A stretch of 64,000 nucleotides of DNA, taken from positions 12,772,001 through 12,836,000 of the forward strand of contig CM022673.1 in NCBI GenBank assembly GCA_012295275.1, given 5' to 3'. A program made the position numbers and the translations under genes. How positions within the stretch are numbered: position 1 is the first letter of the stretch; each line of letters opens with the position of its first letter. The notes beneath the pieces were generated by a model. That model was not told where the DNA came from, did no database searches, and saw only the letters and a program-made list of their open reading frames with translations. Positions 2,995-63,764 of the stretch are shown here, one piece after another. The stretch is from Chrysomallon squamiferum (lineage: Eukaryota > Animalia > Mollusca).

Positions 2995-3985
2995 ATCAAT
3001 TAAATAAACCAATAAAACAAACCCAGACAGGCTGGCCCTGTGTCTTATGATTCTAAATTGTACACCTTTGAGCAGTGAAGCATAAACATACACAAACATA
3101 ATGAAGTAAAACCAATAATTAATAATCTAACCGTTTTCTGCAGAAACCTAGAGTTTCAGCATGAGCAAGAAGAAGAAGAAGAAGAAGAAGATGTAGACAA
3201 AAAAGAAGATTAATATTTTATTTAAAAAAAGAGAGTACTTGAAATACATTCAGTCTGTGTTTATACAGTATTAAAGTTTGTGTTAAGGACTATGTATATA
3301 TTTAGAAAGTAAACCCACTATTAAATGCAGTTGAATATGTTTACAGTTAGCAGCAAGTGATCTTTTAATTTGCACCTTCCCACTGAAAGGAAAGAATTTA
3401 CTGTGGTCTTTGATAAATCAGTAGTGAAGCTCTGATTCAAGTCAGAACAGTACATTATAACAGACCACCAAGGAATATTGATCTTCATGCTGCAGTCCTG
3501 CACTCTTACAACTGAAATAAAACCCTCACCTGAAGCATAAAGTAGAAAAAAATGTCTTGTTGGAACAATTTTAATTAAATAAACCAATAATTAACAATCA
3601 GACCATCTCTATTTTGTTGTAACAACCTAAAGAATGCCCCCTGGGGCAATGGTGCACAAAAATGGAGACTTAAATAAATAAACTAATTATTAATAATCTG
3701 CGACTATAACTAGTTTAGAAGAACCTAAATAGGGCCCTGTGGTCAATAGTGCACCGAATGGATTTAAATCAAATTAAATAAATAAACCAATAATTATTAA
3801 TCAAATATCATAATTTTACCAACTGAACCCAAGATGTGCCCCTTTGGACCCTCCTGCACAAAACAGACAATTACTGAATTAATTAAATAAACCAATAATT
3901 ATTAATCAAGCTAACAGCATTTTGCTACAAGAATCTGTTGAACCTTATAAGTGCCCCTTTATCCAGTGGCGTGCAAAATGTACAC
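2995..3985 (+). repeat. Degenerate ~100-120-bp repeat family (TAAATAAACCAATAATTATTAATC...TGCCCC...GTGCACAAAA); about 4 copies at 3570-3985 plus remnants at 2995-3150
   Basis: The motif recurs near 3001, 3107, 3577, 3675, 3779 and 3883. Confidence 0.7.
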
Positions 3986-11425: not shown

Positions 11426-12267
11426 CCCATAATCTCTATCTCTCTGCATAACATCTCTCTTCTCTCTATTTCATTTTCACTCTCTTTCTCTCATAATCTC
11501 TAGATTATCTCTTTGTCTCTGTCTCTTGCTCCCTTTCTCCCTTCATCCCCATACCCCTCTTTCATTTTATTCTTTACTCTTTATTTTTCTTTTTTTTGTG
11601 CTTTATTATGTATCAGATCAAGTTAATTTTATAAGTGTACTAACTGTTTTTATCTAATCAACAGTAAATAATAAGTGCAAACTGCACCCAGTCATTACAA
11701 GTTCAGGTCACGGCTAAGTCTGCAGTGTTTATTTGTTCTAATCAATTGTTAATTGTTCAATGGCATCATTGGAAGCTGACAGTATTTTAAAAATAGTCTG
11801 AGCACAAATTCAAACTTGTTTAGAACAAGAAATGGGCTAGCTGTAAAAAGAGAATATGAATGAGAAAAAGATAGGGAGGTGCTGAGAGAGAGAAATGTCT
11901 AGACAGATAAACAAACAAATACATAGATAAATAGATAGATATATGGATAGTTAAAGAGATAGATAGAGAGATATATAGATACACAGATATATAGACAGAT
12001 AGATAGAGAGAGAGAGACATAAAGAGGATTGTAGAGAGAAGTATATAGAAAGAAATGGAGAGAGATATAAAAAGAGGGAGAGATAGAAAATAGGACAGAA
12101 AGACAGAAAATCATTACAATATAATTATACTATTTAATACAGCATATCAAGTTTTTACTTTAGTCCATGATGTTGCTGAAATATACATGTACAAATACAC
12201 ATCAGATGCACACACTCATAATCAAACATACAAACACACATACTGACACACACATACACAAAAACAC

Positions 12268-12355
12268 ACTTACCTCTGGTGAAGAAAAGACAAAATAATT
12301 GTTGTTTTGCAGTACTTACCTGCAAAAAACAAAAAATAATAAAATGTAGTCAGTA
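12268..12355 (-). other. Recursive splice site (ratchet point) 2 with 46-nt cryptic exon 12319-12274
   Basis: Minus strand reads TACTGAC (branch point, 12355-12349) TACATTTTATTATTTTTTGTTTTTTGCAG|GTAAGTACTGC...TCTTCACCAGAG|GTAAGT. Confidence 0.72.
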
Positions 12356-12588
12356 ATAACAATATTAAAAAAAATGCAAAAACAACAACAACAACATAAT
12401 AATAATAATAATAACAAAATAATAATAATAAAATAACAAAAATATAATAACAGTAATACTAGTAATGATATTAAGAAAAATGAAATATGATAAATAAAAC
12501 ACAAATTATAATGACCATAATTATAATATGTTAATAATAACAGAACTAATAATAAAATAAGAATATCAGTAACTACAGTTGTGGTAGT

Positions 12589-12783
12589 AATAGAAGCAGT
12601 AAAATAAAGATGTGAATATTTTAAAAATAACAAATTTAATTTAAAAAGATGTTTCCTCTCTTTTATTTACTTTTTAATGTTTTAATGTTTTCTCTTTCTC
12701 TCTTAAATTTTTTATTCTCTCTTTTGATTTTTCAGCTGTTTTCTCTCTCTCTCTCTCTCTCTTCTTTTTTTATTCTCTGTTGA

Positions 12784-12846
<63 letters not shown>

Positions 12847-12876
12847 AGCATCCACATAAATACAAGACGGAACAAA
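12589..12876 (+). repeat. Dispersed direct repeat, copy 2 (with expanded CT microsatellite)
   Basis: Collinear match to 641-891. Confidence 0.85.
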
Positions 12877-13381
12877 TCACTCAAACATGTTCCAGAATTA
12901 AATACATTTTTGGATAACAAAAGTTAAAACTGCAGATTATCTGATTTCCAACATGTTTTTATGAGAAATAAACAGCTGAACACAGAATAAAAATAAAAGT
13001 GTTATCTTTTCAAGATAGCTAGAGTGTCTGCAGTTTATCTCTAAATTTGCAAAATGAAGTGAAAAAGTGTCAAATTGGTTTAAAAAAAGATTTATTAGAT
13101 GCTCATAAAGTTGTTTAATTTGCTTCTCTAAGTCGCTGAATGCCACAAATCTGAAACTGGGAGGAAAAAAAATAATGTAAGATGTATACTCATCAATCAA
13201 AGTTATGGAATATTGATATTTCTGTTGTTGTTATTTTTAAACTTTTTATTATTATTAATAGTTATTGTTACAATAGTTTTTATTATTGATATCATTTTTG
13301 CATGTTTATTTGCTAGTTATTCTAGTTTTTTGTTGTTGTTGTTGTTTTTTTGTTATTATTATTATTTTGTACCATTGTAAA

Positions 13382-13448
<67 letters not shown>

Positions 13449-13995
13449 TTTCTCTATTTTATAATCTAAATGAAAACAGTTTAGGAATCCAAATATAAGT
13501 CAAAATATCTGCATTTATCTTCCATAATAACTGTTTTCCTGTCTATGGGAAGGTAAATTTGAAACATTTTTTCTGCTAATTTAGAAAAACTAAAAGCAAC
13601 CACAGAATAGCATTAGCAAATTTTTATCACCAAATTCAGTGTCTGACATGTAATAACCATTAATATTAAAAATATTTTGACAGGTTATTGAACAGATATT
13701 CATTTATTCATGGGGTGGTGGTAGAGGAGCCCAGTGTCTGGTTTTCTCACAGACTCAGTGACTCTGCTGTCAAAACACTGGCAGACTGCAACAGCCAGGA
13801 TGAAATTTACTGGTTAAAGTTATAAATATTTCCAACATGAAACTCACTGGTCTGATTAGTGATGTCTCAACCAACTTTGTTTTTTTCCACTTGTTTTTTT
13901 AGGTTGTTTTTTTGTTGTTGTTTCTTTATTTTCGATATTGTATAAAATAATACCACAAAAGATTTTAATAATATTTATTATTTAATTAATTAATT

Positions 13996-14392: not shown

Positions 14393-15194
14393 TCTTCAAG
14401 ATCAGAATGATAGAGAAAATGTCATTTCAAATTAAAGCACATGATTGTAAATTGATTATTTATTTAAAAAAATACCAATCTTCGTTGTTATTTTTATTAA
14501 AAGTTTATTTGTTTTGACAAGCAAATTAAAACTGAAATTTTATATATATTATTTAACAATTATTTTTAAATTGTTTTTGGAAATTTGAGGACACACTGTA
14601 TTTATATTTTAAAATACTGGTCAATAATAACAATAAAAATTTTAATATAATTTTCGAAGCCAAAACTGACATGTCTCTTTTAGAAAGGTTTAGTAATTTT
14701 GAAAAAAAACACCTAAAATTTCTTCTCCTTCTAAGAAAAACAGGTGAGTTAAATGAGGCTTACAGGTGTGAACAATTTAGTTAAATTAAAACACTGCAGT
14801 TGATGTGTAGTCAAGTTAATTGTGTTTTCTTTAGCACACCTGTAAAAATATTAAATCTCACCTGACAGAAACTGGAGATGAGTGGGTGGAAGATTGATCT
14901 AAGATTTAAGAAAGGTGGATGCCATTAATTTGGTGGATATAAAAAGAAAAAAGAAAAAAAGAAACAACTGTCGATGAAGAATGCAGTTAAGGATTTATTT
15001 AAAAGCTTAAAATTTTTCTTTCTCTTTTTATTAGTTATCCAAGAAGAAGAAGAAACATTTTTTGGTTATCATTGAGAGATATAGTTTGACTAAGAAAGAT
15101 GCTGAAAGTTGAAGCGATTTTAAGAATACATATTTTTATTTTTATTTGACTTAGCATATCAAATCACAAAGGTAATTATTGTTTTTTTTCATTA

Positions 15195-41673: not shown

Positions 41674-41760
41674 ACTTACCTCTGTTCACTCAAAAATTAA
41701 TAATGTAACAGCAGTACTTACCTGAAAAATAAAAAGATAATTGTGAATAAATAATTAAGA
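41674..41760 (-). other. Recursive splice site (ratchet point) 1 with 42-nt cryptic exon 41721-41680
   Basis: Minus strand reads TTATCTTTTTATTTTTCAG|GTAAGTACTGCTGTTACATTATTAATTTTTGAGTGAACAGAG|GTAAGT. The acceptor is fused directly to a consensus donor, a second consensus donor follows 42 nt later, and a CTTAAT branch-point candidate lies near 41755. Confidence 0.7.
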
Positions 41761-49713: not shown

Positions 49714-50636
49714 GCTAATAGCCATAATAACAGCAGCAACAACAACAACATTAACAATACTTATAACAATAATAATACCAATAATAAAACAAAAATAATA
49801 AAAATATTAATAACAGCAGTATTATTAACAAAATGAAATGAAATTCTTTACGCCAACATAAACACATCTGTTACAGGAAATAATATAATAATAATAACAA
49901 TATAAATATTGAACAGGAAGACTGCAAATATAGAAATAATCATTTTAGTTCTGTGATGTGTATACCAGTTTTAAATAACAATTCTGTGTGACATTATCTC
50001 AGTTTTCATCAAAACAGTTATTTATAAAAGGAGAGATAAAATAATCATAAAAATTCTGCGGTGTTTTGTTACATGTTGAATAAGAAAATATTATGTATGA
50101 TTTAAATTACACCTTTCATGATAATAGTTTAACACATAATTCAGGAAAGGTTAAAAAAATAAATTATAAGATCCAACAGTACATATTAAGCACACACACC
50201 CCAACCAAAAAAACAAAATTATTTTGTTATGTTATATTTTACATTTGAATTTTGTTGTAGTAATTAAATATAAAAACAGAAATGATAAAATATTAGTACT
50301 AGTAATAATAAAAATTGCAGTAAGAATAATAGTAATAATAATAGCAATAATAATAATATATTAATAGTAATAATAGTAGTAATAATAATAATAATAATAA
50401 TAATAATATTTATAATAATAATAAAAACAATAATAATAATAATAATAATAATAACAGTGATAATAATAATAAACAATAATAACAGTAATAATAATAGTGA
50501 TAATATAATAAGCAATAATAATAGTTATAATAGCAGTTGTAGTAATAATAATAATAATAACAACATCAATAAGTGTAATAATAATAATAGTAATAATAAC
50601 AATATTATTAATAATAATAATAATAATAACAGTAAC
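49520..50636. repeat. (AAT)n-rich tracts (49520-49810 and 50300-50636)
   Basis: Directly visible. Confidence 0.9.
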
Positions 50637-50919
50637 AACAAGAACAACAACAGTAATGCTAAATATCTATTAAAGATATTCAACACATTTCTGTGAACGA
50701 TTATGAGACGTTGAGACATCAGACACACGGGCACTCTAACCACTCACACATCAACTTACATACAAACACCCACCCACACCATGGATTTACATCAAATAAA
50801 CTTCATTGTGAAGATTTCTTTTATAATCACCTTCAGCACGAGGAAGTGAAGAAAGTTTTACTAAATTAAAAATTCACAAACAGTTAATTTGATAGCAAGG
50901 CACTCTCCTCTCCATCTCT
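50637..50919 (+). repeat. Left arm of a ~280-bp inverted duplication
   Basis: Reverse complement of 55402-55681, with 5 substitutions and 2 small indels counted by eye. Confidence 0.95.
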
Positions 50920-51670: not shown

Positions 51671-53094
51671 TCAATAATTAAAAATATTTAAAATTGATTT
51701 TGCTTTTATGTTATTAATTTTGAAAAATGTCAACTGAATTAGTAAATAACAAACACATAAAATTTAAATAATAAAAAGAAGGAAAGAAAACAAAACATCA
51801 AAAAATAATAATAAAACAAAAAACCGAAAACAACAAAAGACAATAACCATAAAGCCATGGATTTAAGAAATAAATATAAATAATTTAAAAAAAAAAAAAA
51901 AAAAAGTTAAATTAAGCTTAGTTTTGCAATGATAAATTTTATTACAAATACATTTTATTTCAATGAGATCTGAAGACTGAAAAATTCTATGATGTTTACT
52001 TTTATACAGTTCCACATCTTCTCATCAAACATTTATTAAATACACTCATCTATCATCAAGAAAATGAAGAAAGTTTTGTGTGTGTGTGTGTGTGTATGTC
52101 TGTGTGTGTGTGTGTCCAACTGAAATAAAAAAGTAGTTTTAATTTTTGATTAAGTAACTGATTTAATTTTCTATTATGAAGATCACAATTTTCTTTTCTT
52201 CTTTTTTTTTTTATACCACAAATAACAATTATTATGAGTAAATTATGATTTTTTTTTTAAAATAATGAAATTTGCATGACACCAGCAAGAAATCTTTTAC
52301 AAGAATCTTGTGACAGACTGGGTAACACACCCCACAGAGTTTATAAATTTACTGCAGATACTAAACAGGATTCAAAATGGCTTAATGAGATGGGAGAATT
52401 AAAAAAAAAATTATGGTCGTTTCAATATTAATATTAATGACCTTTTATCATGATGATGTATTATTAAGATAATGACACTAGTAGAAACCAGTATTAGTTG
52501 CAACATGAGAAGAGTGGTTATTGTTATTTTTATTATTTTGTATTTCTATTCAAGATAAGCTTATTATTTATTTGTTATTATTATTAAGATGATGATTGAT
52601 TATGGTGATATTATTATTCACTAGTAGTGGTATTAGTTGCAATAGTGCATTATTTTTATTAACATCATTATTGTTTATTATTATTTTATTGTTTTAATTG
52701 TTGTTGTTCATTAACATCAACATCATTGTTGTTGTTGTTGTTGTTGTTGTTATTATTATTATTATTATTATCATTATTGATAAAGATATTTTTTTAATAT
52801 TTACTTTTCCATCAAACAGGTAAGCACATACCACAATCTTTCAGAGAACAAACACTGTGGACTTATATATAAATCTAACACACTATTAACTAATTGAACG
52901 CCCACACAACAGTGTTTCAAAGAACAGACAGTACAAATGGCCGCACACGAATCTGGTACATTTTAACTTCACTTCTGTCCAGTCCATTTCTCCAACAACA
53001 TTCTCAGGAGAGGTAGAGGAAGAAAATAATCAGATTTGTGAATTCTGAGCTCTCATTCTTCTTTCTCAGACAACACTTGTCCCTTCTTGAGAGT

Positions 53095-55401: not shown

Positions 55402-55681
55402 AGAGATGGAGAGGAGAGTGCCTTGCCATCAAATTAACTGTTTGTGAATTTTTAATTTAGTAAAACTTTCTTCACTTCCTCGTGCTGAAGGTGATTATAA
55501 AAGAAATCTTCATAATGAAGTTTATTTGATGTAAATCCATGGTGTGGGTGTTTGTATGTAAGTTGATGTGTGAGTGGTTAGAGTGCCCGTGTGTCTGAAT
55601 GTCTCAATGTCTCATAATCGTTCACAGCAATGTGTTGAATATATTTAATAGATATTTAGCATTACTGTTGTTGTTCTTGTT
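55402..55681 (-). repeat. Right arm of a ~280-bp inverted duplication
   Basis: AGAGATGGAGAGGAGAGTGCCTTG...CATTACTGTTGTTGTTCTTGTT is the reverse complement of 50637-50919. Confidence 0.95.
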
Positions 55682-56759
55682 TTTATATCTTATTGTTATT
55701 ATTATTATTAGTAGTAGTAGTAATAGCAGTAATAGTAGTGGGACAAGTAATACAGTTATTATTATTATTATTAATAGATATTATTGTTATTTGTGTTATT
55801 ATTATTATTATTATGATTAGTTATTATTGTTATTTGTGTTATTATTAGTGTTGTTGTTGTTGTTGTTGTTGATGATGTAAATTTCTGTACAAAATAGTTT
55901 TTTTCATTCTTATCAAAAATGATAAATAAATTAAAAAAAACAACAAAAAACACAACAGTTATTTGTGGCATATCACAAAACACAAACATTTTGCCAAAGA
56001 ATATCATTTCTTCAAAAATATTATCAGTGACAGAAAAGAAACGAAACCTAAAAATAGCTGTAAGGAACAATATTCTTTTCATATAAATGAGTCTTCATAA
56101 AAAACATCATTTTCAATTAAAAAAAAATCCATCTGGATTAAAAGGGATCATGAAAGGCATGAAGAACAAATTTCAATGAAGAAATATTTAAAAACATGAG
56201 AACAACCAGAGGATATGAATATAAATAACTTTTTTTTTGGCTTGGTAACAAAACTTTTCAAAAAGTAATTCCACTTTTCTGCTTTCCCTTCAAGCGTAAA
56301 AGATGTTTCCTCATAAAAATGAATCTTCAGTTTAAAAAGGAAAAAAAAAAGTATTTTTAAAAATTTCAAAATTGGAATTTGAAAAAGTGTTGAAAAGGAG
56401 TTTTAAAATACAAAGAAGACTTTTTGGTAGAAAGTGTAAATATCAAAAATGAAACAAAGTGACACAGAAAAATGTATAAAAAAGTTAGCAGTAATTTAGC
56501 AAAAACCTCAACAGCAACATCAACAACAGTACATGTAGTAACAATTGATAGTATCAGTGACAGTAGATGTTATAGACATAATTGTAGTGGTAGTGGTAGT
56601 AAAATTAGTAGTAATAATATAATAATAATATAATAATAACCATCATCATCATTAATACTGATGTCATTTCTACCCAGTACAAGACATGTATATTTTTTAC
56701 TCAGCATATTTTAATATTAACAGTTATTATTAAATTTATCACATAGTTAAATATTAGAG

Positions 56760-59606: not shown

Positions 59607-60329
59607 CATTTACTCATACACATAGTACATATATATGGAATTGTTAATAGTGTATCATTGATTTTCAAGAATAGTGTAACTGATTTTACAACAGAGATAA
59701 AGTCAGAAAGAAAATATCTGATATTTTATTTATAAAAATATTCACTGGAGATAACAAGAAATAAAATAAATATTTAACAGGGGATAAGAATGAGTTAAAG
59801 CCATTGCTATTTGTCAACTGATAATTTAAAAAAAAAAAAGAAGATGAATATTTTTTTATCTAAAAATTACTTCCCGGTGCACAAAGATTTTGCATGTGTA
59901 TAATTATATGATAATTATATTATGAGCGAACAGAAACACAAAAACATGTTCAGACCACACACATGTACATTCAAATACAAAAAAACATTCACACAAGTAC
60001 AGATGCATTCATAACAGACATATGCAGAGATAGACAAATATACATGTCAGTATATATATATATTCACTCATTTGCTTCAAAACATATGATTGCACACAAG
60101 TATTTGCCTAAAATAAGTAAGATAAAACATAAAGTAAATAGTAAGTCAATAAATAAGTATGTATATATGTATTTAGCAGTTAAACACATTTGTAAATACA
60201 AGAGTGGAAATGTTCACTGACTGATGAACTAACTAACTTACTAACCACAAACAAAAGCAGTTTCCCAACCTATCCAGTTAACTATCTCTTTAATTAACCA
60301 AACGAAAAGAATTTAGCTGATAGAAAAGT

Positions 60330-60790
60330 AATGTAACTTGTCAAATTTACTAACACCATAATGTGCCGAACTCATTAACATACTAACAGATTAATTGGCC
60401 GAACTCACTAACATACTAACATGCTTATTAACAAACTCACTAATATATTAACAGGGTTAGGATATTATTCAATTAAATGCCCAGTGAAAAAACATATTAA
60501 AAGGCTAATTTACAAAACTAACTAACATACTAACTTGCCAAACTCAAAAACATACTAACTTTTCAAACTTACTAACATGCTAACTTGTCACACTCATACA
60601 TATACTAACTTGCCAAACTCTCCAACACACCAATCTGTAAAATTATAACTGCAAAACACACTTACTATGAGACTAACTTGTCAAACTCACTAACATACTA
60701 ACTGATTAATTGCCAAAGACATGTACTAAAAGACTGACTTCTCAGACACACTAACATACTAACAGAACTCACTAGCCACACCAACATATT
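60330..60790 (+). repeat. ~25-bp minisatellite (AAACTCACTAACATACTAACTTGCC)n just inside the first intron
   Basis: Repeated ACTAACATACTAAC units. Confidence 0.85.
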
Positions 60791-60837
60791 ATCTGCTGGA
60801 CTAGAATAGAAAAGAAAACTAAGTAGGAAAGCCTTAC

Positions 60838-61322
60838 TTTTCTAACTTGTGAAGATGAGGAATCCGTCGAGGCTGGACTGGACTGACTCCTGAACAGATG
60901 GCATCTTCATCTAAATTCATCCATGGTATGTGTGTAGGGGTCAAAGGACGCCTTTCCTGGGCTGGAGCATCCATCCTCTTCTTCTCATCAGTAATTCCAG
61001 GTAAAACAATTTCCGACTTTGATTTCACTGTATCCACATTGTCACTGCCTGCCTTTAGTTTGGCAGCATCAACACTGTCCTTCTGTTTTGCACCAGCAGT
61101 GTCAACAGTATCCTTCTGCTTTGTTACAACAGTGTCAGTGTTGTCATTTTGCTTTGCTACAGCATCAACATCATCTTTTTGTTTCACGGTATCGTCAGCT
61201 GCTGCACTGGCCTTTTTCATATCGGCAACATTTTGGGGATTATCTTCATCTTTTCTGGTTTCATTTTGTAAAAGAGTTGTTATTTTTTCAATGTTTTCCT
61301 CCATGATGGTGCTCTGTGCCAT
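60838..61322 (-). CDS. First coding exon of an unidentified large multi-exon gene; disordered acidic/Lys-rich N-terminus with KQKDxVD repeats, then RRPLTPTHIPWMNLDEDAICSGVSPVQPRRIPHLHKLE
   Basis: The only ORF with complex, protein-like composition and raised GC. Start context is AACATGG (A at -3, G at +4) with an in-frame TGA 20 codons upstream. The apparent stop codon lies inside a splice donor (GAA AA|GTAAGG, GT at 60837-60836), so this is an exon with a phase-2 intron rather than a complete gene. Confidence 0.8.
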
Positions 61323-61700
61323 GTTATGGAAATGTTTAAACTTCAGATGAACTGCACAACAGGTAAGATATCCAGGTACTCAGAATCGTTAATGAAATAA
61401 CACAGGTGTTCCGATTTGGCAGTATTACAGGTGTTTTCAAATGATATTCAGAAAGATTATTAGGGGTGGTTGCTGGGGGGGGAGTGTTTTGTAGGGTGTT
61501 CTGTTTATGATCAAGAAATTTACAAAAAAAGTTTATGTCTAGTCAAAATGCTTCAGAGGTAAATTATATCCCAAAACAACATTTTATTTATTTTGATGAA
61601 TATTTTTTGTTCTGTTAATTACTTAAAGTCTTCAGTATTATATATTTTTTAATTATTTGACTGACTGTAAAATAACAGAATCCAGAAAAAAATATTTGTA
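61323..61700 (-). other. Probable 5' UTR part of the first coding exon and its upstream 3' splice site
   Basis: Minus strand reads ATTTTTTTCTGGATTCTGTTATTTTACAG|TCAG with AG at 61666-61665, giving an exon of 61664-60838. A weaker alternative acceptor lies near 61352. Confidence 0.4.
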
Positions 61701-62299
61701 GTATTCTTGTAAAACTGGCAGCCAATTATATTTTTTGTAATAAATAGTAAAATTCAAAATATTACTGCATGAAAAAATACTAACAAAACATTATAAAATA
61801 AATCAACACTTAAATATTATCCTTAGTTTAAAACTAAAATATCTAATTTCTTTTTTAATTCTTAAAATCAATTACTGTTTAATTTATAAAAATCTGTTTT
61901 AAAGCATTTACTCTAACTAAATTTTTTGTACTTTTTTAATGGTTTTTTTTGTTATATAAAAAGAAAAACATCAGAGATCTTATTTTCACAAAACAAAAGC
62001 AAGCAGAATATTAAATATTAAATAAACAAATAAATTTAATAATCCATACAATCTTTAAAAACATCTAAATGTGATAAAAAAAACCATTTACTTTTCACTT
62101 TCAACAGCTATTGTAATTTAAAAATCCAGATTTGATAACAGAATCACAGAAGTATGGACATCCGACACAACTATATTTCTATTAAACAAATATGAAAGAA
62201 ATTTTCTAAAACATCCACAACTGATAAAGAATTAAATGCAGAATGTCACATTTGTTTAAAAAAAACTCATCTGTGACAGAATCATGAAACTGTGGACAC

Positions 62300-62600
62300 C
62301 AACAACTACAGGGTCACAAGTCACCTGTTTTCAATAACATCAACAACAGCAGCACTGAACAGTTACAGCATATACGTTATCAGCTCAACTGAAATGAAAA
62401 TCCCCATGCAGTGACGGAAACACAAAAACACTGACAGCAGCAACTACACTATCCCGCTCTCCTGTTACAGAATGTTCTACCACATCCACTGCGATGGCAC
62501 CAACTCAGAATGAATGCCAGAGCAGGCAGCAGCTACCTGTTTTAAAACCACAGTCACTTAAATACGGATCAATAGCCGGTCATCTGCTACCTCTAGCTCA
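62300..62600. promoter_or_regulatory. GC/CpG-richer patch upstream of the first coding exon; candidate promoter or non-coding exon
   Basis: Several CGs (GACGG, CCCGC, GCGATG, TACGG, GCCGG) about 1 kb 5' of the ATG on the minus strand. Confidence 0.35.
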
Positions 62601-63764
62601 GTGAACAATCCTGTACAGAATTCACAGTTAGATGTAACATACTGACTTTTAGCTATCATCTCAATGCAGGTAATTAAAACAGGATAACCTGAGTTTTACA
62701 TGGGTGAGAAATAACCACAGGAAAACATATGAATTCATAAACAAGAGTTGTTGTTGTTGTTGCTGTTTATAAATAAATAGCATAAATATATAAATAAGTA
62801 TTGTAAGTTAATAAATAATAGAAAAATAAGTAAATAAATATGAAAAAAATTAATAAATAAATAACAAATAAGTAAGTAAGTAAATAAACTGATGTATAAC
62901 TAAATATGTAAGTAAATAACTAAACAAATAAATAATAAAATATTATCTAAATAAAAAAATAAAAAAATATATAAATAAATAAACAGAAATAGAATCATAT
63001 TCTAATCTTTTTGAGTGTTATGAACAAAAATTATATAACTAAATATTGGGAAAAGTATAAAAAAGAGAATGTATAGATGTGTGTATATTTATGAGTTACT
63101 GTTTATGTATTTGTGTTTGCATGTATGTATATATCAATATATATATATTTGTAAGAATGTAGATATACATATGCATATCTGTGTGCTTGTATGTAAATGT
63201 TTGTGTGTGCATGTATATATGTGTATATGTATGTATGTATGTATCTACATATGTATGTGTGTTTGTATATATCTATAAATGTATTTATATAAGCATATAT
63301 ATTTATCTGTATATTATACTTATCTATACATATATGTATTTCTATCAATTTATTTGTATACGTAAATATATCTGTTTTTCTTCATATCTGTGCACACAAA
63401 CACACACACACATACATATATATTATATGTATGTATGTATATTTATCTTTGTATATATATAATCTGTTTATCTACTAGGTATATATATATATAAATATGT
63501 ATATCTCTGTATTGTAAATAGTGATAATCACATATTTGTAACTGTTAAAGAAGACGTGACAAACAAAGTGTTACATCTTCAGGTTAATTAACTGTTTTAT
63601 TTATAAACATTTACCTGAAATGTCTCCCCAGGTAAAACTAGATGTTAATTAGTACATGATCATAAACACAGGCTCAGTCTATAAAAAGAAACCATCAAAA
63701 TAAGTGAGGACTGTAAAGAGCAAAACTGAATCTTTGAAATGTTTTTATTTGAATCTTTTATAAA

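What the first reader, a model, noticed from the sequence alone, without database searches (positions are those of the whole stretch)
12268..12355. Ratchet cassette 2: consensus branch point and a nested second acceptor/donor
TACTGAC (TACTRAC-type branch point) lies about 30 nt upstream of a U-rich tract and CAG|GTAAGTA. The 46-nt cryptic exon itself ends in a pyrimidine tract plus CAG-AG|GTAAGT (TTTTGTCTTTTCTTCACCAGAG|GT). The second donor therefore also resembles a ratchet point or 2-nt micro-exon, possibly a tandem or back-up site.
Basis: partly seen in the sequence, partly recalled or inferred. Interest (0 to 1): 0.7.

Follow-up and report, generated by a model that had tools for sequence, protein, structure and literature searches.

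The report
Likely recursive splice site with hairpin
On the minus strand of an unidentified animal genome sits a fused "end-of-intron/start-of-intron" signal followed by a 46-base hidden exon, one of two such cassettes that likely let a very long intron be cut out in steps as in fruit flies; the extra nested splice site is probably incidental, and no RNA evidence of use was obtained.

Summary
The sequence is as described, on the minus strand: branch-point heptamer (A at 12350), U-tract, CAG|GTAAGTA at 12320/12319, a 46-nt segment, second donor at 12273. A sibling cassette (42 nt) lies at 41721. Both keep this layout across five thresholds; at most 1 of 2400 simulated strands reached two. About 19 kb upstream of the sibling is a conserved 161-codon exon-like ORF ending at a phase-2 donor. 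Best reading: a Drosophila-type ratchet point with a cryptic RS-exon in a very long intron (0.6). No spliced read was obtained.

The nested acceptor is present but weakly supported. Its tract has a 0.5–2% chance rate, but the AG at the donor is GAG, the CAG sits 2 nt off, it has no consensus branch point or downstream donor of its own, and the sibling lacks the tract. New here: a predicted 13-bp hairpin covers the first acceptor and loops out its donor. Against skipping: joined to the candidate exon, the regenerated donor scores below the second donor, so a poison exon remains possible. The scan has noted such cassettes on other DNA (38 notes, at least 4 genomes). New member of a known kind.

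The parts
12349..12355 (-). Branch-point-like heptamer TACTGAC; predicted branch A at 12350
   Evidence: 30 nt from the AG end; 0.4% of sampled positions carry TACTRAC in that span; lies in a 137-nt AG-free zone
12320..12344 (-). U-rich tract and acceptor CAG (first half of the ratchet point)
   Evidence: acceptor rank 2 of 3308 minus-strand AGs
12313..12319 (-). Donor 1, GTAAGTA (second half of the ratchet point)
   Evidence: rank 1 of 3505 minus-strand GTs in genomic context
12274..12319 (-). 46-nt candidate cryptic RS-exon; not a multiple of 3; immediate stop if entered in phase 2; open in the other two frames
12299..12332 (-). Predicted RNA hairpin: 13 bp with one bulge; 5' arm 12332-12320 (tract and CAG), loop 12319-12313 (donor 1), 3' arm 12312-12299
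   Evidence: -12.4 kcal/mol, z -3.6 on a 61-nt stretch chosen after the fact (z -0.9 on 111 nt); chance 0.3% to 6.5% depending on what is held fixed; absent in the sibling
12274..12295 (-). Nested acceptor look-alike: pyrimidine tract, CAG (12278-12276), AG (12275-12274); function doubtful
12268..12273 (-). Donor 2, GTAAGT (RS-exon donor)
   Evidence: rank 4 of 3505
41674..41745 (-). Sibling cassette: tract, CAG|GTAAGTA at 41722/41721, 42-nt segment closed in all three frames, donor 2 at 41679
   Evidence: donors rank 2 and 5, acceptor rank 9; 123-nt AG-free zone
3524..3550 (-). Third ratchet-like site, CAG|GTGAGG at 3530/3529, without a strong downstream donor; weaker candidate
60832..61322 (-). 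Candidate upstream (probably first) coding exon: ATG 61322, 161 codons plus 2 nt, donor AA|GTAAGG at 60838/60837; gene unidentified; link to the cassettes inferred
   Evidence: two unnamed relatives (46% identity, near-identical last 40 residues) end at the same residue; RNA-library contigs of 2 of 3 RNA runs lie on it at depth 2-4

Best explanation
This is likely a ratchet point (recursive splice site) with a 46-nt cryptic exon, inside what is probably a very long intron of a minus-strand gene, and the nested acceptor at its far end is probably incidental. Shown in the sequence: branch-point heptamer, U-tract and CAG fused to a GTAAGT donor, a second donor 46 nt on, and a sibling cassette 29.4 kb upstream on the same strand. 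Inferred by analogy with Drosophila: (1) donor 2 lets the 46-nt unit be defined as an exon; (2) the upstream exon, likely after a first step at 41721, is spliced to the CAG at 12320 using the A at 12350; (3) this regenerates a donor at 12319, which is used for the next step, so the 46 nt leave with the intron and nothing remains in mRNA; (4) occasional use of donor 2 would include the 46 nt and, with the candidate phase-2 exon, put a stop at once. The predicted hairpin would slow step 2 at most and is predicted to vanish after it, because its 5' arm leaves with the lariat.
For: Four of the five best minus-strand donors belong to the two cassettes, the fifth is a third ratchet-like site. Cassette layout: 2 on minus, 0 on plus, null 0.002 per strand at the middle threshold, 0 of 2400 strands with two (one search likewise). 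The exact pattern matched 10 stretches in 596 Gb of prokaryote genomes and 41 in the metagenome collection, against 2 in this 64-kb window; the pattern was drawn from these sites and base composition differs, so this is a rough control. Segment lengths of 46 and 42 nt match the fly RS-exon (~50 nt, poorly conserved, generally out of frame; PMC8605326). AG-free zones of 137 and 123 nt precede the acceptors. No Pfam family in 111 fragments (E<=0.01) or above cut-off in 6 ORFs. A generic exon scan found only 2 minus-strand candidates, one a microsatellite and one with weak sites. An exon-like ORF upstream on the same strand has relatives ending at the same residue, consistent with a kept phase-2 donor. 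Spacings of 19.1, 29.4 and 8.8 kb are of the order of, but partly longer than, fly segments (9-15 kb, enriched in first introns; PMC6110457). Hairpin lost in the step-1 product (-0.2 kcal/mol).
Against: No spliced read, lariat or sawtooth was obtained, and no orthologous DNA for conservation. If the upstream exon is the one ending at 60838, the regenerated donor AAA|GTAAGTA scores 3.8 against 8.6 for donor 2 (rough matrix); in flies the weaker ratchet donor loses and the exon is included (PMC8605326). The hairpin is predicted to pair the acceptor CAG almost fully (unpaired probability 0.00; tract 0.2), unlike yeast canonical sites, which are depleted of stems (PMC12350175). The downstream exon and the host gene were not found, so the intron is inferred. 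A plus-strand ratchet-like site exists at 52820 (scores 5.4 and 8.7), so single sites can arise on the other strand. Matrices are generic and recalled.
Confidence: 0.6

Rival explanations
1. The 46-nt unit is an expressed or regulated RS-type poison exon: spliced in at 12320 and out at donor 2, putting a premature stop (or a frameshift) into the message and sending it to decay; the donor at its 5' end is the skip route.
For: Donor 2 (8.6) outscores the regenerated donor (3.8) if the candidate exon is joined. Phase-2 entry gives a stop at once in both cassettes. Flies have a minority of expressed RS-exons (<50 against >500 intronic ratchet points; PMC8605326).
Against: The intronic part of donor 1 is a full GTAAGTA and better than the exon's own donor GTAAGG (3.8 against 3.2), so it is at least as usable as the native site. 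Two poison exons with the same 5' donor in one intron are more simply read as stepping stones. The true upstream exon is not known.
Confidence: 0.18
2. Structure-gated tandem site: the hairpin hides the first acceptor and shortens the path from A12350 to the nested CAG/GAG from 74 to about 40 nt, so one branch point serves either acceptor; the distal choice gives a 2-nt AG micro-exon (frameshift) or a zero-nucleotide back-up ratchet at 12273.
For: Nested CAG acceptor ranks 8 of 3308, chance 0.5-1.8%. Hairpin -12.4 kcal/mol spanning 34 nt, chance 0.3% when only the first 7 exon bases are fixed. Precedent: yeast stems between branch point and acceptor shorten the distance and occlude cryptic AGs (PMC12350175 passages); human distal exonic recursive sites exist (10 lariat-supported, PMC10156609 passages); a 4-nt micro-exon can be constitutive (PMC9929638 abstract).
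Against: Both features were picked after the fact and in one of two cassettes. Hairpin chance rises to 6.5% once the CTGC shared with the hairpin-less sibling is fixed, and z is -0.9 on 111 nt. The in-register AG is GAG. No third donor follows to define an exon. No covariation data. A+U-rich flanks make such stems common.
Confidence: 0.07
3. A non-functional look-alike: chance motifs in A+T-rich, microsatellite-rich DNA, a decayed former exon, or a relic of a repeat.
For: No RNA or conservation evidence. Relaxed look-alikes occur in repeats in this window (14741-14866 fold-back; 50830 in a dispersed repeat). The two cassettes share 5 bases beyond GTAAGT (about 0.2% by chance) and a CAG before donor 2 (about 3%), which could hint at common origin.
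Against: Nulls almost never give two cassettes. The cassettes share no homology outside the tract and motif, and neither overlaps any of the 4 complex repeat pairs of the self-comparison. All three best sites are co-oriented with the conserved ORF.
Confidence: 0.12
4. The 44- or 46-nt GT...AG stretch is itself a mini-intron that re-creates a donor at 12273.
For: It begins with GTAAGT and ends with a tract and CAG or GAG.
Against: The only usable branch-like A is 24 nt from donor 1; at least 42 nt are needed between donor and branch point for compatibility with spliceosome structures (PMC12350175 methods passage, yeast).
Confidence: 0.03

Closest known systems
Drosophila intronic ratchet points with cryptic RS-exons (Ubx, kuz RP1/RP2, Bx; PMC8605326 parts 1-2 of 6 and passages; PMC6110457 passages and S1 table search)
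   Same: Fused acceptor/donor AG|GT with strong tract; downstream donor about 50 nt on; exon out of frame or closed; two sites in one long stretch like kuz; likely a first intron.
   Different: Unidentified non-model animal; use not shown. One spacing (29 kb) exceeds the typical 9-15 kb. Both cassettes continue GTAAGT with ACTGC, whereas in the fly table 37 of 560 AGGT occurrences read AGGTAAGT, 1 continues with A and none with AC. Predicted hairpin over the acceptor. Regenerated donor may be weaker than the RS-exon donor.
Vertebrate RS-exons (Sibley 2015 and Blazquez 2018, as summarised in PMC8605326; originals not read)
   Same: Exon definition by a downstream donor, then competition between two donors.
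   Different: Mostly expressed exons kept in by the exon junction complex; here the exon would break the frame.
Distal exonic recursive sites and dual-specificity sites in human cassette exons (PMC10156609 passages)
   Same: An acceptor-like tract and AG at the far end of an exon, next to its donor.
   Different: Those were selected as ending in YAG with a mapped branch point inside the exon; here the exon ends in GAG, the YAG is 2 nt off and no consensus branch point lies in the exon.
Yeast 'downstream stems' that occlude cryptic acceptors and shorten the branch-point distance (PMC12350175 passages)
   Same: A stem between a branch point and a distal AG that covers a proximal AG.
   Different: Here the covered AG is the stronger site and part of a ratchet point; the stem is predicted only.

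Membership tests
Intronic ratchet point with cryptic RS-exon (Drosophila type) | Juxtaposed strong acceptor and donor around AG|GT | tested here: met
   acceptor rank 2 of 3308, donor rank 1 of 3505 (generic matrices)
Intronic ratchet point with cryptic RS-exon (Drosophila type) | Downstream donor about 50 nt on, defining a short cryptic exon | tested here: met
   46 nt; donor rank 4 of 3505
Intronic ratchet point with cryptic RS-exon (Drosophila type) | Cryptic exon out of frame or stop-containing | tested here: met
   46 nt is not a multiple of 3; immediate stop in phase 2; two frames open
Intronic ratchet point with cryptic RS-exon (Drosophila type) | Lies on the sense strand of a long intron | tested here: inconclusive
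   Co-oriented conserved exon-like ORF 48.5 kb upstream and no convincing exon between; downstream exon and gene not found
Intronic ratchet point with cryptic RS-exon (Drosophila type) | Ratchet donor outcompetes the RS-exon donor | tested here: inconclusive
   9.6 against 8.6 in genomic context, but 3.8 against 8.6 when joined to the candidate exon; matrix rough, partner exon unproven
Intronic ratchet point with cryptic RS-exon (Drosophila type) | Splicing intermediates (junction reads, lariats, sawtooth) at the site | not testable with these tools
   Only contigs were on offer, none covering the cassette
Intronic ratchet point with cryptic RS-exon (Drosophila type) | Conservation of the AG|GT motif across species | not testable with these tools
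   No genome held; no orthologous locus among 41 pattern hits
Distal exonic recursive site (nested acceptor) | Exon ends in YAG directly before its donor | tested here: not met
   Ends in GAG; the CAG is 2 nt upstream
Distal exonic recursive site (nested acceptor) | Pyrimidine tract before the distal AG | tested here: met
   14 of 15 pyrimidines at 12295-12281; chance 0.5-1.8%
Distal exonic recursive site (nested acceptor) | Branch point inside the exon, shown by lariat | tested here: inconclusive
   Only a non-consensus ATTAT with A 20 nt from the CAG end; no lariat data

The most novel reading that the evidence does not exclude
A hairpin-gated double ratchet: in the pre-mRNA a 13-bp stem hides the first acceptor while displaying its donor in the loop, and brings the consensus branch point within reach of a second acceptor 44-46 nt on. 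RNA folding (or a protein or temperature that shifts it) would choose between silent stepwise removal and a 2-nt frameshifting micro-exon, making a ratchet point an on/off switch for the gene. The ACTGC and CAGAG shared by both cassettes would mark a lineage-specific ratchet code not seen in the fly table.
Probability: 0.07. Interest if true: 0.75.

Novelty: new member of a known kind. Interest (0 to 1): 0.3.

Why it matters
If used, it adds one more animal outside insects and vertebrates to those that remove long introns through cryptic-exon ratchet points. Motif enrichment in invertebrate long introns was already reported for insects and sea urchin (PMC2773006 passages), and this scan has noted similar cassettes in other genomes, so the gain is incremental. 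The site-specific extras (hairpin over the acceptor, nested tract) matter only if shown to work: then a ratchet point would double as a structure-controlled switch. My searches did not list such a case (5 papers, seen as listings only, none evidently on this).

Tried and rejected
No whole genome is held. No RNA holder listed for 11500-13500; this is no evidence on expression. Laying four runs on 12090-12640 gave no listed contig across the cassette, only repeat-like pieces and, for X1, flanks (959 pieces not shown). Laying them on 60760-62760 gave no joint and no RNA contig over the donor at 60838. The gene could not be named: longer-protein searches found nothing (proteins over 2000 aa not searched), the near-length search gave only 2 unnamed relatives, Atlas hits were 0.76 at best (leads only, rejected), PDB hits E>=0.45; P0002 and P0003 match only the repetitive middle of the query. 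Rfam and ARAGORN: 0 hits. The metagenome pattern scan returned 41 stretches; none is microsatellite-rich like this window, none continues with ACTG, many lie among long ORFs or in tandem repeats; a few possibly eukaryotic ones (L003/L010, L007, L016, L022, L035) were not followed up. The repeat search was swamped by microsatellites; a filtered self-comparison showed no repeat over either cassette. The mini-intron reading was rejected on donor-to-branch distance. A putative acceptor just upstream of the ATG (about 61343-61351) was set aside: an RNA-library contig runs across it (depth 2.6, weak). Joseph 2018 (PMC6709686) and Duff 2015 (PMC4529404) are not held; they are cited only through PMC8605326. 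Literature searches for recursive splicing with mollusc (0 papers), annelid (1 unrelated) and cephalopod/crustacean terms (none of 25 listed held the term) found no report; the library lacks most subscription papers.

Full report
Setting. The window is A+T-rich animal-like DNA (GC 17-33% per 2 kb), 28% tandem repeat, with no Rfam or tRNA hit and no Pfam family in 111 ORF fragments. No genome is held and the species was not identified.

Observation. Read on the minus strand, the finding is exact: TACTGAC at 12355-12349 (A at 12350, 30 nt from the end of the AG), a U-tract at 12344-12324, CAG|GTAAGTA at 12320/12319, 46 nt, then tract-CAG-AG|GTAAGT with the second donor at 12273. A motif scan found AG|GTAAGT four times in 128 kb of both strands: these two and a sibling pair at 41721 and 41679, 42 nt apart, also on minus.

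Is it chance? I scored all sites with rough generic matrices (recalled, not species-trained). The five best of 3505 minus-strand donors are 12319, 41721, 3529, 12273 and 41679; acceptors 12319, 12275 and 41721 rank 2, 8 and 9 of 3308. The layout acceptor+donor+second donor occurs twice on minus and never on plus at four thresholds, once on minus at the strictest, and 5 against 2 at the loosest; block-wise Markov nulls give 0-0.024 per strand at the five stricter settings, and at most 1 of 2400 strands reached the observed count (one search agrees under three other nulls). The exact pattern matched 10 stretches in 596 Gb of prokaryote genomes and 41 in metagenomes, none of them orthologous. Thresholds and pattern were set after seeing the sites, so these figures overstate significance, but the margin is wide. 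Single ratchet-like sites are less special: one lies on plus at 52820.

Host transcript. The only ORF in the window for which relatives were found is a minus-strand one, ATG 61322 to a donor AA|GTAAGG at 60838/60837. A search of 1.84 billion representatives found one true relative (E 7e-24); a second came from the profile search. Both are unnamed, 46% identical, nearly identical over the last 40 residues, and end at the same residue plus K. That is what read-through into a kept phase-2 donor would give (inference). Contigs of run X1 differ at 4 of 485 ORF bases with no gap, against 29 of 1286 with 15 gaps upstream (Fisher p 0.049). Contigs from 2 of 3 RNA libraries lie on the ORF and upstream at depth 2-4; none covers the donor, and DNA in the library is not excluded. 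So a minus-strand gene with a probable first exon here is likely; that the cassettes lie in its intron (segments of 19.1, 29.4 and 8.8 kb) is inferred, since no downstream exon is in the window and the gene has no name.

Mechanism. The anatomy matches the fly model: a fused acceptor and donor, a cryptic exon of about 50 nt defined by a downstream donor, poorly conserved and out of frame, skipped because the regenerated donor wins (PMC8605326, parts 1-2 of 6 read; PMC6110457 passages). The 46-nt unit shifts the frame, the 42-nt unit is closed in all frames, and phase-2 entry gives a stop at once in both. One result goes against clean skipping: joined to the candidate exon, the regenerated donor scores 3.8 against 8.6 for donor 2, and in flies a weaker ratchet donor leads to inclusion. 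It still beats the exon's native donor (3.2), the matrix is rough, and another upstream exon may be the partner. I therefore give the ratchet 0.6 and a poison RS-exon 0.18.

The nested acceptor. The tract is real and moderately unusual (1.8% of window tracts, 1.1% without microsatellites, 0.5% of exon shuffles), but it was picked after the fact in one of two cassettes. The AG at the donor is GAG (rank 81); the good CAG is 2 nt off and would insert AG. No consensus branch point lies in the exon; the one candidate A is 24 nt from donor 1, too close for a mini-intron (42 nt needed in yeast-based structures; PMC12350175 passage). No donor of 3 bits or more follows 12273. The sibling ends in the same CAGAG|GTAAGT without a tract. 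In human, 56% of exons end in AG, 10.2% of cassette exons reach the 5th percentile of acceptor strength at their far end and 1.62% the median; 10 such sites had lariat support (PMC10156609 passages). So the arrangement has precedent but is usually idle.

The hairpin. Folding predicts a 13-bp stem with one bulge (12332-12320 with 12312-12299) that pairs the tract and CAG and loops out GUAAGUA (-12.4 kcal/mol; z -3.6 on 61 nt, -0.9 on 111 nt). It persists in 196- and 346-nt contexts (CAG unpaired probability 0.00). Chance is 0.3% with the first 7 exon bases fixed, 1.3% with CTG and 6.5% with CTGC fixed; the sibling shares CTGC and has no such stem. It is lost once the upstream exon is joined. 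Closed, it would cut the branch-to-distal-CAG path from 74 to about 40 nt, as yeast stems do. This is the most novel reading (0.07); there is no covariation or RNA support.

Shared letters. The cassettes share ACTGC after GTAAGT (about 0.2% by chance) and CAG before the AG of donor 2 (about 3%), with no other homology. In the fly S1 table, 37 of 560 AGGT occurrences read AGGTAAGT, one continues with A and none with AC. This may be a lineage-specific consensus or coincidence; it is unexplained.

Comparison and verdict. It works like, and by every sequence feature that could be settled is, a Drosophila-type ratchet point with a cryptic RS-exon; use, conservation and donor competition remain open. 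Enrichment of such motifs in invertebrate long introns is in print (PMC2773006 passages). I found no paper on recursive splicing with mollusc, annelid, cephalopod or crustacean terms, but the taxon here is unknown and the library incomplete; Joseph 2018 and Duff 2015 and their supplements could not be read and may bear on tandem sites. The scan holds 38 earlier notes of this kind in at least 4 other genomes (unchecked AI notes, not counted as support) and none on this DNA. New member of a known kind; interest 0.3.

Noticed in passing
window 60838-61322, minus strand: Exon-like ORF of 161 codons with a low-complexity D/K/T/A-rich middle and a 40-residue end nearly identical in two unnamed relatives; no Pfam, PDB or named homolog. 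Probably the first coding exon of an unidentified conserved gene.
   Followed up: partly
window 14741-14866: Imperfect fold-back of about 126 bp with two CAGGTG boxes 22 nt apart on each arm, facing inward; looks like a small inverted-repeat element or a clustered E-box site and produces false donor hits on both strands.
   Followed up: partly
window 61360-61433, plus strand: Four CAGGT(A/G) motifs within 70 nt just upstream of the ATG at 61322; possibly regulatory boxes in the 5' UTR.
   Followed up: no
window 50435-50919 and 55402-55870: Dispersed repeat of about 490 bp, 85% identical, in inverted orientation 4.5 kb apart; the core 162 nt are 96% complementary.
   Followed up: no
window 62250-62670: GC-richer stretch (39-51%) with a Thr/Ser-rich 68-codon frame on plus (62398-62601) and a plus-strand CAG|GTAAT at 62670; an RNA-library contig with no mismatch covers 62389-62575. 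Could be 5' UTR of the minus gene or a separate exon.
   Followed up: partly
window 52817-52826, plus strand: Ratchet-like CAG|GTAAGC on the opposite strand; did not pass the stricter cassette thresholds.
   Followed up: no
window 60230-60770: Degenerate tandem array rich in TACTAAC on the plus strand (10 copies listed), just downstream of the candidate exon's donor on the opposite strand.
   Followed up: no
L014/L015/L039/L040, L021/L025/L036, L004, L013, L031, L038: Metagenome tandem arrays whose units contain CAG|GTAAGT-like splice motifs repeated every 16-64 nt; origin not examined.
   Followed up: no
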